Positions 36,256 to 38,976 of a stretch of DNA of 64,000 bases are shown one piece after another. Both the position numbers and the translations under genes were made by a program. Each line of letters starts with the position of its first letter. Position 1 is the stretch's first letter. Source of the stretch: Methanothermococcus thermolithotrophicus DSM 2095 (GTDB taxonomy: Archaea > AGJL01 > Methanococci > Methanococcales > Methanococcaceae); NCBI RefSeq assembly GCF_946463545.1, contig NZ_OX296583.1, positions 1,432,902 to 1,496,901 of the forward strand, written 5' to 3'. The notes beneath the pieces were generated by a model. It did no database searches and was not told where the DNA came from. It saw only the letters and a program-made list of their open reading frames with translations.

Positions 36256-36897
36256 ATGAGTTTATGGAACAAAATAAAAGGGAAATTACAAAAAAATCCA
36301 ATAGAAAAATTAACAATAAGAGACTTAGAGGGGGAAAGAATTAGATTAAAAAGTAAGTTAGATAGGGTGAAAAAAGAGATAAAATCATTGGATAAGCAAA
36401 AAAAGCAATTATTCAAAGAAGGGGTTGGTGCCGATAAACTCACAAAAAAAATGCTTGCACAGGACATAAAAAGTGTTGAAATGGAAATGAGATTAAAGTA
36501 TAAAAGCTTCCAAACTTATCAGAAGCAGTTTAATTTTGTAAATAACCTGTTAATTGTTAAAAAATACGAAAAAGAATTGAAAAATATAGGAATGTGGAAT
36601 AAAATTAACAACATACAACCTGAGCTCTTGGAGTTAAAACTGAGTGATATAATACTTGATGGTAAGGAGTTTGACCAAACTGTTGAGGGGTTGAATAAAG
36701 TATTTGAAATGAGAATTGATGATTTTGATGAGGAAGTCGATAGCACAGAGAAAAAACTATTCGATGCATGGGGGCAGGCTGAAAGTGGTGATATGGAAGC
36801 TGATGAGGTTGTGAGCAATTTGAACTTGGATACTGATGGGGAGGAAGAAGAGGACGATGAAGAATTATTTAAGAGATTAGAGAAGGAGAATCAATAA
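36256..36897 (+). CDS. Snf7/ESCRT-III-like (PspA/Vipp1 superfamily) protein with acidic tail and MIM1-like motif
   Basis: Basic N-terminal helical hairpin and an acidic C-terminus ([12 protein letters not shown]). The terminal [10 protein letters not shown] resembles the MIT-interacting motif D/ExxLxxRLxxL. Confidence 0.55.
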   Translation: [213 protein letters not shown]

Positions 36898-37068
36898 TAA
36901 TTTAATTTTTTATTTTTTTGAATATAATGTTATGTGGGATATTGTGGTATTTGATAAGATTAAAATCCCGATATCTTATGAAGTAGTGGCATCAGCGGAG
37001 GTAATAATCCATAAGATTAAATTAGGTTTCAAATGTGATTAAAATATCTCAAAAAATGAGGGGATAAA

Positions 37069-37704
37069 ATGTTAGGTAAATTAAAAAGTCTGTTCTCTAA
37101 AAATAAAAATCCATTAGATATGCCATTAGATAAACTAAACGAATCAAAAATAAAATTGGATATTCAAGTTAAAAAATTAGAAGATGAGCTCTCAAAAATA
37201 GACGACCAAATTACAATATTGTTTGGAAAGGCAAAGAGCTCTAAAAGCAAAAGTGAAGAATTGACAATTGCTACAAAAATAAAAACTCTCAGTCAAAGAA
37301 AAAAGCAATTACAAAATTCTCATGCTCTATTAAACAAACAGGTGAGATTCGTAGATAATCTTTTAGTAATAAAAGAAAATGAAGAGATTTTAAAATCCAC
37401 GCCTTTATGGAACACACTAAACAGTATGTCGCCACAGGAGTTGGAAAATTATCTAATTAATATGAAAATAAACAGTGAAAATATTATCGGAACACTAAAT
37501 AACGCTCTCGGTATCACCGATGACATGCTGAGCTCGGCATCAGAAGAACATGATGAGGATATTGCTGATATTTTAAATACAATACATGCGGTTAAAGAGG
37601 GGGAATTGGATATTGACGATGCAAAGGAAATAGTATCCGATGAAAAGAAGCAGGAAAAAGAAGACGATTTTGAAAAGGAATTGAAAAGAATATTAGAAGA
37701 ATAA
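37069..37704 (+). CDS. Snf7/ESCRT-III-like protein, second paralog, with MIM1-like C-terminus
   Basis: Same architecture as the first paralog. C-terminal EKELKRILEE. Confidence 0.55.
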   Translation: MLGKLKSLFSKNKNPLDMPLDKLNESKIKLDIQVKKLEDELSKIDDQITILFGKAKSSKSKSEELTIATKIKTLSQRKKQLQNSHALLNKQVRFVDNLLVIKENEEILKSTPLWNTLNSMSPQELENYLINMKINSENIIGTLNNALGITDDMLSSASEEHDEDIADILNTIHAVKEGELDIDDAKEIVSDEKKQEKEDDFEKELKRILEE

Positions 37705-37755
37705 TTATTATCACTATTTTTTAATAATTATATTATCATATTTGGGGGGATTATA

Positions 37756-38976
37756 TTGGAAATTGATTTATCCGGAGCTCTGATGAGTCAGTTTAAAAGA
37801 GCTAAAAAAGAATATGAGATAGCAAAGGAGAAAAAGAACGAAAGTATTGCTAAAAAAAAGGCGTTAGAATGTGCCAAATTATTGAGACAAATAGCAAAGT
37901 ATGATGGATACAATGAAAAAAGCTATTTGGAGAAAGCTAAAAAATGGGAGTTAGTGGCAAATAACATAGAAGAAGTATTTAATCCATCAAAAGCTAATAA
38001 ATCCAAACCTACAAAAAAATCAGCACCATCAAATAAACCAAACTCATCAAACACCACAGAGGATGAGGCAGAAGATGAAATTGATAAGTTTAAAAATTTT
38101 GTGAAAAATAATTTAATACAAAAATCCACTATGAAGTGGGACGATATAGGGGGGTTAGAAGAAGTAAAACAGCTTATGATGGAAACCATAGTAATATCAG
38201 CACTTCAAAAGCCTGCATCAATACAACCATGGAAAGGGATTTTATTATTTGGACCACCAGGAACAGGTAAAACACTATTAGCTTCTGCATGTGCTGGAAG
38301 TTTGGAAGCAACATTCTTTAATGTGAAGGCATCATCCGTATCAAGTAAATACTACGGCGAATCTTCAAAAATTGTAAGTGCATTATATGATGTTGCAAGG
38401 GAGCTCCACCCAAGTATTGTATTTATTGATGAAATCGATGCCTTAACAACAAAGAGGAGCGATGGAATAAGTGAGGCATCAAGGAGGATGTTATCAACTT
38501 TATTAACAGAATTGGATGGTTTTCAAGATAAGGGGAGCGATAGGTTAATATTAACACTTTCGGCAACAAATACGCCATGGGATTTAGATGAGGCGGTGCT
38601 TTCAAGGTTTTCAAGGAGAATTTATATTCCTTTACCTGATAAAGAAGCTACAAAGGAAATTATTAAAATTAACACAAAAGGGGTTAAGTTGAATGTTAAT
38701 TTAGATGAAATTGCGGATAAGTGTGTGGAAAAACTCTATTCTGGTAGGGATTTAAAAAATCTCTGTCAGGATGCTATTTGGAATATGATTAGGGATGTAA
38801 ATAAGGATTTGTATAAAATGGCTAATTTGTCCTATAAAGAGTTGAAGAGGAGGAAGTTAAAAACAAGAGCTCTGACTGATGATGATTTTGAAGAGGCATT
38901 TAAGAAAATAAAAAGCCCTTTAACTAAATCTGAAATTGAGAAGTATGAGAAATGGGGGGAGGAATTTGGAGGATAA
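37756..38976 (+). CDS. Vps4/CdvC-like AAA+ ATPase with N-terminal MIT-like three-helix domain
   Basis: Walker A GPPGTGKT. Vps4-specific SEASRR motif and the [26 protein letters not shown] segment are present. N-terminal 75 aa are helical. Confidence 0.85.
   Translation: [406 protein letters not shown]

What the first reader, a model, noticed from the sequence alone, without database searches (positions are those of the whole stretch)
36256..38976. ESCRT-III-like x2 plus Vps4-like MIT-AAA ATPase module in a Methanococcales-type genome
The ATPase has Vps4-specific signatures ([32 protein letters not shown]) and a helical MIT-like N-domain. The two ~210-aa upstream proteins have Snf7-like basic-to-acidic helical layout. 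They end with MIM1-like motifs ([10 protein letters not shown] and EKELKRILEE) that are predicted to bind MIT. This is a complete Vps4-substrate pair. Methanococcales divide by FtsZ and are not regarded as Cdv organisms. The module may drive vesicle budding, membrane repair or another remodelling task.
Basis: partly seen in the sequence, partly recalled or inferred. Interest (0 to 1): 0.75.

Follow-up and report, generated by a model that had tools for sequence, protein, structure and literature searches.

The report
Known euryarchaeal ESCRT-III/Vps4 gene cluster
This is a real ESCRT-like membrane-remodelling gene cluster (two ESCRT-III-like proteins plus a Vps4-like ATPase) in the methanogen Methanothermococcus thermolithotrophicus, but these exact genes were already catalogued as such in a 2024 survey, so it is not a new find.

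Summary
The three ORFs and every quoted motif are present as described. The window is Methanothermococcus thermolithotrophicus: 21 kb is 100% identical to the DSM 2095 draft.

All three proteins and three neighbours are sequence-identical to WP_018153911, WP_018153912, WP_018153913, WP_018153914, WP_018153915 and WP_018153917. Makarova et al. 2024 (mBio, PMC10936438, Table S1) list these as Vps4, two "Snf7 family" proteins, two "ESCRT system proteins" and a membrane Ser/Thr kinase. They belong to the "Main" clade of euryarchaeal ESCRT systems.

My own tests mostly agree:
- The ATPase has an intact AAA core and a Vps4_C helix. Its N-terminal three-helix bundle best matches MIT domains, including Sulfolobus CdvC.
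- ESCRT-III membership of the small proteins rests on faint but convergent evidence. There is no Pfam Snf7 hit, but CdvB is the top PDB profile hit (E = 0.005), and the fold and charge layout fit.
- The "Vps4-specific" motifs are shared with katanin and spastin.
- The proposed MIM1 motifs do not fit the consensus and occur only in some Methanococcales.

The module is larger than reported: 33951–41775 at least, probably extending to 45430. Three one-base frame breaks in flanking genes are probably assembly errors or recent lesions. Function is still untested. Already known; low interest.

The parts
33951..34478 (+). arCOG08177 'ESCRT system protein' (175 aa). The paper describes an inactivated Cas2-like N-domain plus a TBP-fold DUF3568 domain.
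   Evidence: Identical to WP_018153917.1, which the paper's Table S1 lists as arCOG08177. 82% identical to the M. igneus arCOG08177 protein. No Pfam hit here. Always the first gene of the cluster.
34475..36210 (+). arCOG09748 'ESCRT system protein with C-terminal winged helix' (helical, coiled-coil, globular and wH domains). It is frame-broken in this assembly. The ATG at 34475 reads 43 aa; the rest is ORF 34585-36210 (541 aa). The break is in the A5 run at 34578-34582.
   Evidence: The 541-aa ORF is identical to WP_018153915.1 and 77% identical to the M. igneus arCOG09748 protein of 574 aa. Adding one A gives a 578-aa protein that aligns without gaps to four 578-aa relatives.
36256..36897 (+). 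ESCRT-III-like protein A (arCOG09747 'Snf7 family protein', 213 aa). It has a basic helical hairpin and an acidic C-half; the [11 protein letters not shown] tail is lineage-specific.
36898..37068 (.). 171-bp AT-rich spacer between A and B. M. igneus and M. infernus carry an extra arCOG03407 AAA+ gene at this position.
   Evidence: no remnant of that gene anywhere in the window by tblastn. The short direct and inverted repeats are not statistically compelling.
37069..37704 (+). ESCRT-III-like protein B (arCOG09749 'Snf7 family protein', 211 aa), a paralogue of A.
   Evidence: Identical to WP_018153913.1. Paralogy with A shown. Some Thermococcus orthologues are named 'SNF7 family protein' by NCBI. 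Charge layout.
37756..37980 (+). MIT-like three-helix bundle of the ATPase (residues 1-75).
37981..38976 (+). Variable low-complexity linker, single AAA cassette and C-terminal Vps4_C helix of the Vps4-like ATPase. The whole protein spans 37756-38976.
   Evidence: Pfam AAA E = 1.2e-37 (residues 162-293) and Vps4_C 28.7 bits against a cutoff of 21.3 (residues 358-405). Walker A GPPGTGKT, Walker B IVFIDE, pore loop 1 KYYGE, pore loop 2 EASRR and SRH arginines are all intact. Identical to WP_018153912.1, listed as Vps4 and as tree leaf 267.
39023..41775 (+). Membrane sensor Ser/Thr kinase (arCOG03682), ordered signal peptide, beta-propeller, PEGA, TM segment, kinase, helical C-domain. Here it is split into three ORFs (39023-39646, 39579-40586, 40555-41775) by an extra T at 39643/39644 and by the A9 run at 40571-40579.
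   Evidence: Pfam WD40/PQQ, PEGA and Pkinase. Junctions read. Removing one T and one A gives a 916-aa protein that is 916/916 identical to MDK2946481.1. M. igneus has a single 1097-aa kinase at this position. The kinase ORF is WP_018153911.1.
42044..45430 (+). Probable regulatory extension of the locus: DUF4013 membrane protein (42044-43030), a second Ser/Thr kinase (43027-44070), a 146-aa unknown (44091-44531) and a PP2C phosphatase (44540-45430).
   Evidence: Pfam. M. igneus also has a PP2C next to the kinase. The paper reports STK and STP genes in many Main-clade loci. Membership in the system is inferred from position only.

Best explanation
The finding is the central part of a 'Main-clade' euryarchaeal ESCRT system, a cluster of at least six genes at 33951-41775.

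Shown here:
- The gene order arCOG08177, arCOG09748, ESCRT-III-like A, ESCRT-III-like B is conserved across Methanococcales, Thermococcales and Archaeoglobales-type MAGs. A Vps4-like ATPase and a Ser/Thr kinase lie adjacent or nearby.
- The ATPase has all catalytic and pore-loop residues, a Vps4_C helix and an MIT-fold N-domain.
- A and B are paralogues with a long basic helical hairpin and an acidic C-half.

Inferred mechanism, by analogy with Sulfolobus CdvB/CdvC and eukaryotic ESCRT-III/Vps4:
- A and B co-polymerise on the cytoplasmic face of the membrane through their basic hairpins and conserved N-terminal hydrophobic segment.
- The arCOG09748 (coiled coil plus winged helix) and arCOG08177 (dimerising Cas2-like plus TBP fold) proteins act as upstream nucleators or cargo adaptors, in the role of ESCRT-II or CdvA.
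- The hexameric ATPase docks on the acidic C-terminal tails through its MIT domain. It threads subunits through its pore (KYYGE and EASRR loops) and so remodels or disassembles the polymer to drive membrane constriction.
- A membrane sensor kinase with a beta-propeller/PEGA ectodomain, a second kinase and a PP2C phosphatase gate the process by phosphorylation.

The likely output is outward vesicle budding, protein sorting or membrane repair. It is probably not cytokinesis, because these organisms keep the FtsZ machinery. The identity of the system is secure. The cellular role is genomic inference only.
For: Identity:
- All six proteins are sequence-identical to accessions that Makarova et al. 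2024 list as Vps4, Snf7-family, ESCRT-system proteins and STK of M. thermolithotrophicus. Their text describes the same architecture.
- Synteny is conserved in about 20 loci.

ATPase:
- AAA plus Vps4_C; motifs intact.
- The C-terminal region best matches katanin, spastin and fidgetin-like 1, i.e. the Vps4-containing clade.

ESCRT-III:
- CdvB is the only hit of profile A1 (E = 0.27) and the top hit of profile A4 (E = 0.005) among 177,635 PDB sequences.
- hhalign against four Pfam-validated Snf7 references gives collinear matches: E = 4.7e-4 for A4 and E = 0.016 for A3, against 0.13-0.29 for reversed-sequence controls.
- The Foldseek top hit is CdvB2, and about 17 of the top 50 are ESCRT-III superfamily structures.
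- Charge layout fits.
- The N-terminal 'FFGxKNP' / 'MFGRKN' motif resembles the CHMP 'LFGK/R...P' start.

Regulation: kinase, second kinase and PP2C are adjacent.

Non-division role: the paper states that such systems coexist with a mostly complete FtsZ machinery.
Against: - Neither A nor B matches Pfam Snf7 or any NCBIfam model even at E <= 1. Only 1 of 71 family representatives does.
- No canonical MIM1 or MIM2 is conserved, so the MIT-tail contact is unproven.
- No sequence method detects MIT.
- I did not place the ATPase in a tree with katanin and spastin.
- Three frame breaks in flanking genes could mean the system is decaying in this strain.
- A 2021 review cites unpublished work in which disrupting any of the three Vps4 homologues in T. 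kodakarensis did not change vesicle production. I did not check whether that species carries the full locus.
- No experiment on this system exists in the searched literature.
Confidence: 0.85

Rival explanations
1. The small proteins are generic coiled-coil proteins, as the database name 'chromosome assembly protein' suggests. On this view they are not ESCRT-III homologues, and the ATPase is a katanin-like unfoldase acting on some other substrate.
Against: The top PDB sequence-profile hit is specifically CdvB for two profiles. Collinear hhalign matches to Snf7 references lie above the reversed-sequence controls. The Foldseek ranking is dominated by ESCRT-III structures. Size, helix lengths, charge polarity and strict linkage to an MIT-AAA ATPase all fit ESCRT-III. 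The published arCOG annotation is 'Snf7 family'. The 'chromosome assembly' name has no evidence behind it.
Confidence: 0.06
2. The proteins belong to the PspA/Vipp1 branch of the ESCRT-III superfamily and form a membrane-stress repair system, not a Snf7/CdvB-type budding system.
Against: There is no Pfam PspA_IM30 hit. CdvB, CdvB2 and CHMP rank above Vipp1 in every search. PspA systems are not, to my knowledge, paired with MIT-AAA ATPases. The paper files these proteins under Snf7 and reserves PspA-like for a different clade.
Confidence: 0.04
3. The cluster is a Cdv-like cytokinesis machine that takes part in cell division in Methanococcales.
For: Homologous CdvB/CdvC drive division in Sulfolobales. 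Some sources name orthologues of the ATPase 'cell division protein'.
Against: No CdvA or PRC-barrel gene lies in the locus. The paper notes these complex systems coexist with a mostly complete FtsZ machinery and argues against a division role. The system is patchy within Methanococcales and Thermococcales, which does not suit an essential divisome. That Methanococcales divide with FtsZ is established knowledge.
Confidence: 0.04
4. In this particular strain the system is decaying or switched off. The adaptor gene and the sensor kinase carry real frameshifts, which leaves only the A/B/Vps4 core expressed.
For: There are three one-base frame breaks within 7 kb: the A5 run at 34578-34582, an extra T at 39643/39644, and the A9 run at 40571-40579. 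The same breaks occur in the DSM 2095 draft, which is 100% identical. RefSeq carries the fragments as separate proteins.
Against: The repaired kinase is 916/916 identical to an intact metagenomic allele, with no other decay. Two of the three breaks are in A-runs, and a 99.96% identical assembly differs from the window by indels only in A-runs. That is the usual signature of homopolymer sequencing error. The 100% identity with the draft may mean the same underlying data, not independent confirmation.
Confidence: 0.2

Closest known systems
'Main' clade euryarchaeal ESCRT system (Makarova et al. 2024, mBio 15:e00335-24; arCOG08177, arCOG09748, arCOG09747, arCOG09749, arCOG01307, arCOG03682)
   Same: It is this system. 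All six proteins are sequence-identical to the M. thermolithotrophicus entries in the paper's Table S1. Gene order and the kinase/phosphatase association are as the paper describes.
   Different: Nothing of substance. Compared with M. igneus and M. infernus, this genome lacks the arCOG03407 AAA+ gene between the two Snf7-like genes. Its kinase carries a beta-propeller ectodomain, and three genes are frame-broken in the assembly.
Crenarchaeal Cdv system (CdvA, CdvB/ESCRT-III paralogues, CdvC/Vps4) of Sulfolobales
   Same: An MIT-AAA-Vps4_C ATPase is encoded next to ESCRT-III-type proteins. The CdvC MIT domain is a top structural match. CdvB and CdvB2 are the best sequence and fold matches for A.
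   Different: There is no CdvA. No winged helix is fused to ESCRT-III; a wH sits on the separate arCOG09748 protein instead. There is no proline-rich MIM2. The organism has FtsZ. Kinase and phosphatase genes are attached. The presumed role is not division.
Eukaryotic ESCRT-III/Vps4 (Snf7/CHMP4, Vps2/CHMP2, Vps24/CHMP3; Vps4)
   Same: Subunits of about 210-240 aa with a basic hairpin and an acidic tail, an N-terminal 'LFG'-type motif, an MIT-AAA ATPase with the same pore loops and C-terminal helix, and paralogous subunits.
   Different: Sequence similarity lies below Pfam thresholds. No conserved MIM1 or MIM2 is present. The collinear alignment of the C-terminal region with katanin leaves no room for a Vps4 beta-domain insertion. 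ESCRT-0, ESCRT-I and the ubiquitin link are absent.
Katanin p60 / spastin / fidgetin (other members of the Vps4-containing AAA clade)
   Same: These are the highest per-domain sequence scores in the PDB (about 215-222 bits). The C-terminal lid and helix match best to katanin. Their N-domains are MIT or MIT-like.
   Different: To my knowledge those are eukaryotic microtubule-severing enzymes. Here the genomic partners are ESCRT-III-like proteins, and the published tree treats this protein as Vps4.

Membership tests
Vps4/CdvC ATPase (arCOG01307) | N-terminal MIT three-helix bundle | tested here: met
Vps4/CdvC ATPase (arCOG01307) | Single AAA cassette with Walker A and B, pore loops 1 and 2, and SRH arginine fingers | tested here: met
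   Pfam AAA E = 1.2e-37. [19 protein letters not shown], EASRR and [19 protein letters not shown] are present.
Vps4/CdvC ATPase (arCOG01307) | C-terminal Vps4_C oligomerisation helix | tested here: met
   PF09336 scores 28.7 bits against a cutoff of 21.3, at residues 358-405. It is present in nearly all orthologues.
Vps4/CdvC ATPase (arCOG01307) | Phylogenetic placement with Vps4/CdvC rather than katanin, spastin, fidgetin, Cdc48 or PAN | tested here: inconclusive
   I built no tree. Scores do not discriminate: katanin 221.7 bits, spastin 215.8 bits, VCP D2 166.8 bits; NCBIfam CdvC model 202 bits, CDC48 209 bits, PAN 199 bits. The published Cdc48-rooted tree includes this exact protein as Vps4, Main clade.
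Vps4/CdvC ATPase (arCOG01307) | Encoded next to ESCRT-III genes | tested here: met
   The ATPase lies directly downstream of B in Methanococcales loci and in several Thermococci/Archaeoglobales loci, and nearby in others.
Vps4/CdvC ATPase (arCOG01307) | ATP-dependent disassembly of ESCRT-III polymers | not testable with these tools
   This is a biochemical property.
ESCRT-III (Snf7/CHMP/CdvB, Pfam PF03357) | Match to the Snf7 family HMM | tested here: not met
   A and B have no hit at E <= 1 in Pfam or NCBIfam. One of 71 family representatives reaches Snf7 at E = 3.4e-4.
ESCRT-III (Snf7/CHMP/CdvB, Pfam PF03357) | Remote sequence homology to bona fide ESCRT-III | tested here: inconclusive
   CdvB 9s9j is the top PDB hit of two profiles (E = 0.27 and E = 0.005). 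hhalign against four Snf7 references gives E = 4.7e-4 with 32% probability, and E = 0.016; both matches are collinear. Reversed-sequence controls give 0.13-0.29. The signal is weak but consistently points the same way.
ESCRT-III (Snf7/CHMP/CdvB, Pfam PF03357) | ESCRT-III fold: long alpha1-alpha2 hairpin followed by short helices, about 200-240 aa in all | tested here: met
ESCRT-III (Snf7/CHMP/CdvB, Pfam PF03357) | Basic N-terminal half and acidic C-terminal half | tested here: met
   pI 10.1 and 4.05 for A; pI 9.7 and 4.17 for B.
ESCRT-III (Snf7/CHMP/CdvB, Pfam PF03357) | C-terminal MIT-interacting motif (MIM1 (D/E)xxLxxRLxxL(K/R), or proline-rich MIM2) | tested here: not met
   0 of 45 sequences fit the full MIM1 consensus. 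The relaxed core is found only in A, in 6 of 22 sequences, and never in B or Thermococcales. No proline-rich tail is present. What is shared is an acidic tail, which in many Thermococcales ends in L or F.
ESCRT-III (Snf7/CHMP/CdvB, Pfam PF03357) | Polymerisation on membranes | not testable with these tools
   This is a biochemical property.
Main-clade euryarchaeal ESCRT system (Makarova 2024) | Vps4 plus ESCRT-III plus arCOG09748 plus arCOG08177 in one locus, often with STK and STP | tested here: met
   Exact accession identity for all six proteins. Orthology to the annotated M. igneus genes. Conserved synteny. STK, a second STK and PP2C are present.
Cdv cell-division system (CdvABC) | CdvA (PRC barrel plus coiled coil) encoded with CdvB and CdvC | tested here: not met
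   No neighbour in 27.7-49 kb has a PRC-barrel or CdvA hit. The paper reserves CdvA for the TACK clade.
PspA/Vipp1 (PF04012) | Match to the PspA_IM30 HMM | tested here: not met
   No hit at E <= 1. Vipp1 ranks below CdvB and CHMP in the fold searches.

The most novel reading that the evidence does not exclude
The MIT-tail recognition in this clade could be of a new kind. The only C-terminal feature shared across orders is an acidic tail, which in many Thermococcales ends in L or F. Some Methanococcales have added a short MIM1-like helix ([11 protein letters not shown]) to protein A only, which would give asymmetric Vps4 recruitment to one paralogue. Together with the ectodomain sensor kinase, second kinase and PP2C, the system would be a signal-triggered, phosphorylation-gated vesicle-shedding or membrane-repair device in an FtsZ-dividing methanogen, and not a constitutive sorter. 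A more speculative add-on is that the A-runs in the adaptor and kinase genes act as slippage switches.
Probability: 0.15. Interest if true: 0.5.

Novelty: already known. Interest (0 to 1): 0.2.

Why it matters
The finding is a correct rediscovery. [quoted passage not shown] In the literature I could search, nobody has yet shown what it does. The value added here is modest:
- an independent check of the MIT fold;
- a caution that Snf7 membership rests on faint signals;
- evidence that the proposed MIM1 motifs are not conserved;
- the true extent of the locus;
- the observation that three genes of the locus are frame-broken in this assembly while intact in near-identical strains.

Tried and rejected
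- Pfam and NCBIfam scans of A and B gave nothing. Single-sequence PDB searches gave nothing.
- The B-family profile against the PDB gave only spurious weak hits such as NF-YC.
- The N-terminal-domain profile against the PDB and Pfam gave no MIT hit. The top hit, flap endonuclease at E = 0.005, is a short helical coincidence.
The B-family alignment A2 worked but reaches only close relatives.
- A full-length PDB search could not rank Vps4 against katanin, because two-domain Cdc48 entries fill the list.
- I considered a phylogeny with katanin, spastin and Vps4 but did not build it, for lack of verifiable reference sequences.
- tblastn found no remnant of the arCOG03407 gene.
- The repeats in the A-B spacer are not above chance: 16 of 100 shuffles gave at least 2 matches.
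- tRNA and Rfam scans of the window found nothing.
- The 2010 Nat Rev Microbiol paper could not be read.
- My first script failed on a file path.
- A notebook entry gave the A5 run as 34573-34577. The correct coordinates are 34578-34582.
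Full report
**Observation.** Every quoted peptide is present. The charge polarity is real. The N-halves have pI 10.1 and 9.7, and the C-halves have pI 4.05 and 4.17. A and B are paralogues: BLASTP gives 25% identity with E = 1e-12, and hhalign of the two families gives 99.3% probability.

**Provenance and prior art.** Window 27756-48976 is 100% identical to contig AQXV01000044.1 of Methanothermococcus thermolithotrophicus DSM 2095. Exact-sequence look-ups give these identities:

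| Window ORF | RefSeq accession |
|---|---|
| ATPase | WP_018153912.1 |
| A | WP_018153914.1 |
| B | WP_018153913.1 |
| upstream 541-aa ORF | WP_018153915.1 |
| upstream 175-aa ORF | WP_018153917.1 |
| downstream kinase ORF | WP_018153911.1 |

Table S1 of Makarova et al. 2024 (mBio 15:e00335-24, PMC10936438) lists these accessions for this organism. [quoted passage not shown] The text defines a "Main" clade of euryarchaeal ESCRT systems spanning Thermococcales, Methanococcales, Methanomicrobiales and Halobacteriales, with exactly this composition and frequent kinase and phosphatase genes. [quoted passage not shown] I could not read that review. The finding is therefore a rediscovery of a published locus.

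**The ATPase.** Pfam gives AAA (E = 1.2e-37) and Vps4_C (28.7 bits against a gathering score of 21.3), but no MIT. Walker A, Walker B, pore loop 1 (KYYGE), pore loop 2 (EASRR) and the SRH arginines are intact.
- The highest single-domain scores against the PDB are katanin p60 (221.7 bits) and spastin (215.8 bits). The Cdc48/VCP rows rank higher only because two domains add up; VCP D2 alone scores 166.8 bits.
- The last 111 residues match katanin best (E = 7.5e-12), then spastin and fidgetin-like 1.
NCBIfam scores for CdvC, CDC48 and PAN models (202, 209 and 199 bits) do not discriminate.
- The first 75 or so residues are conserved from Methanococcales to Methanosarcina but hit no MIT model by sequence.
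- The MIT claim is therefore supported, by structure only. I did not build a tree with katanin and spastin. For placement I rely on the published Cdc48-rooted tree.

**The small proteins.** Remote evidence nevertheless converges on ESCRT-III:
- A profile of the A family has a single PDB hit, S. islandicus CdvB (E = 0.27).
- A joint A+B profile finds 345 representative clusters, mostly about 200 aa and matched end to end.
- A profile of 71 diverse members again ranks CdvB first, now at E = 0.005. One of the 71 reaches Pfam Snf7 at E = 3.4e-4.
Against these, hhalign gives collinear matches with E = 4.7e-4 (32% probability) for A4 and E = 0.016 for A3. Reversed-sequence controls give 0.13-0.29.
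- The AF2 model of A (pLDDT 67) has a 21-56/61-103 hairpin followed by short helices.
- Foldseek finds nothing individually significant. Its best hit is CdvB2, and about 17 of the top 50 are ESCRT-III superfamily structures.
- The N-termini (Thermococcus B "M-SFLSRFFGKKNPLD", A "MGIRDMFGRKNT") resemble the CHMP "LFGK/R...P" start.

I conclude that membership is likely, in agreement with the arCOG annotation. It rests on weak signals, not on a family HMM.

**MIM motifs.** None of the 45 aligned sequences fits the full MIM1 consensus (D/E)xxLxxRLxxL(K/R). The relaxed core [DE]xx[LIVMF]xxR[LIVM] occurs only in protein A, in 6 of 22 sequences: the window, five other Methanococcales (Methanococcus aeolicus, Methanotorris igneus, Methanofervidicoccus, Methanothermococcus okinawensis) and one unnamed metagenomic protein. 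It is absent from Methanocaldococcus and Methanotorris formicicus A, from every B, and from all Thermococcales. No proline-rich MIM2 is present. The shared trait is an acidic tail, which in many Thermococcales ends in L or F. The modelled C-terminal helix of A has pLDDT below 50. The "complete Vps4-substrate pair" is therefore plausible from linkage, but the specific MIM1 reading is not supported.

**Extent of the system.** Mapping the window proteins onto 25 fetched loci shows the order arCOG08177, arCOG09748, A, B in every locus with enough flank. Vps4 follows directly in Methanococcales and in several Thermococci/Archaeoglobales MAGs, and a Ser/Thr kinase is nearly always close. The two upstream window genes are 82% and 77% identical to the annotated M. 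igneus arCOG08177 and arCOG09748 genes. Downstream lie a beta-propeller/PEGA/TM/kinase gene, then a DUF4013 membrane protein, a second kinase, a 146-aa unknown and a PP2C phosphatase. M. igneus and M. infernus carry an extra arCOG03407 AAA+ gene between the two Snf7-like genes. Here there is only a 171-bp spacer with no remnant of that gene.

**Frame breaks.** Three one-base lesions interrupt flanking genes.
- *arCOG09748.* The gene starts at ATG 34475 and loses frame in the A5 run at 34578-34582. Adding one A gives a 578-aa protein.
- *Beta-propeller.* An extra T at 39643/39644 breaks the repeat ("...GRVYLFD|NEDNVLWSY...").
- *TM segment and kinase.* These are separated by the A9 run at 40571-40579; A8 would fuse them.

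Repairing the last two gives a 916-aa protein that is 916/916 identical to MDK2946481.1 and 913-914/916 identical to three other metagenomic proteins. The repaired arCOG09748 protein aligns without gaps to four 578-aa relatives. A 99.96% identical assembly (GCA_030153405.1) differs from the window by indels only at two A-runs: A6 in place of A5 at 34578-34582, and A6 in place of A7 at 34914-34920. The pattern points to homopolymer sequencing error or very recent slippage, not long-standing decay.

**Mechanism.** The best-supported reading is the published one. It is a membrane-remodelling ESCRT system whose polymer-forming subunits (A, B) are remodelled by a MIT-AAA unfoldase, with coiled-coil/wH and Cas2-like/TBP adaptors and phosphorylation control. 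[quoted passage not shown] Shown here are gene content, synteny, catalytic integrity, the MIT fold and the ESCRT-III-like architecture. Inferred are polymerisation, MIT-tail binding, the adaptor roles, kinase gating and the cellular output. I found no experimental study of this clade. A 2021 review still stated that Euryarchaeota lack ESCRT-III. It also mentions unpublished work in which disrupting any of the three Vps4 homologues in T. kodakarensis did not affect vesicle production.

**Verdict.** The locus is already known and interest is low.

Noticed in passing
window 34475-36210 (A5 run at 34578-34582; A7 run at 34914-34920): The arCOG09748 gene is frame-broken in an A5 run, and adding one A restores a 578-aa protein. 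A 99.96% identical assembly (GCA_030153405.1) has A6 there but is broken instead at the next A-run (A6 against the window's A7). Intact 578-aa alleles exist in related metagenomes.
   Followed up: yes
window 39023-41775 (extra T at 39643/39644; A9 run at 40571-40579): The sensor kinase is split into three overlapping ORFs in three frames. RefSeq carries them as separate WD40, PEGA and kinase proteins. Removing one T and one A gives a 916-aa protein (signal peptide, beta-propeller, PEGA, TM segment, Ser/Thr kinase) that is 916/916 identical to MDK2946481.1. This is either a homopolymer sequencing error or a recent lesion.
   Followed up: yes
window 36898-37068: The 171-bp AT-rich spacer between the two ESCRT-III-like genes holds two copies of ATAAGATTAAA and 13-nt imperfect inverted repeats. 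M. igneus and M. infernus have an arCOG03407 AAA+ ATPase gene inserted at this point. The repeats are not above chance (16 of 100 shuffles), and no gene remnant is present.
   Followed up: partly
window 10337-19048 (+ strand): This looks like a defence island with strongly positive GC skew. It holds a 1067-aa PLD(HKD)-SNF2 helicase fusion (PADLOC 'HKD+Snf2', DrmD-like). Next come two ORFs (533 and 273 aa) that both match the N-terminal 215-257 positions of one type IIG restriction-methyltransferase model, and then a 998-aa Eco57I/MmeI-type methyltransferase with a TaqI_C domain. It may be a split or duplicated type IIG enzyme with a helicase-nuclease partner.
   Followed up: partly
window 22503-26261 (- strand): A 1252-aa archaeal DEAD/Hel308-type helicase is interrupted by an intein with a LAGLIDADG homing-endonuclease domain (Intein_splicing at residues 367-883).
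   Followed up: no
window 29347-30315 and 31586-32416 (+ strand): A HEAT/Adaptin_N-like repeat protein (322 aa; 38 bits against a cutoff of 37) and an SPFH/Band_7 protein (276 aa) lie 2-4 kb upstream of the ESCRT cluster. The 2024 paper links these domain types to other archaeal ESCRT clades. They are separated from the cluster by genes on the opposite strand and are not conserved upstream in M. igneus, so linkage to the system is doubtful.
   Followed up: partly
window 4849-5856 (- strand): A lone type I restriction-modification specificity (S) subunit gene. I did not look for its methylase or restriction partners.
   Followed up: no
protein clusters of the window proteins: Several near-identical copies of these Methanothermococcus proteins are deposited under bacterial MAG names (Candidatus Pacebacteria/Paceibacterota, Bacteroidia, Geotoga sp.). 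This points to mis-binned contigs in public MAGs.
   Followed up: no
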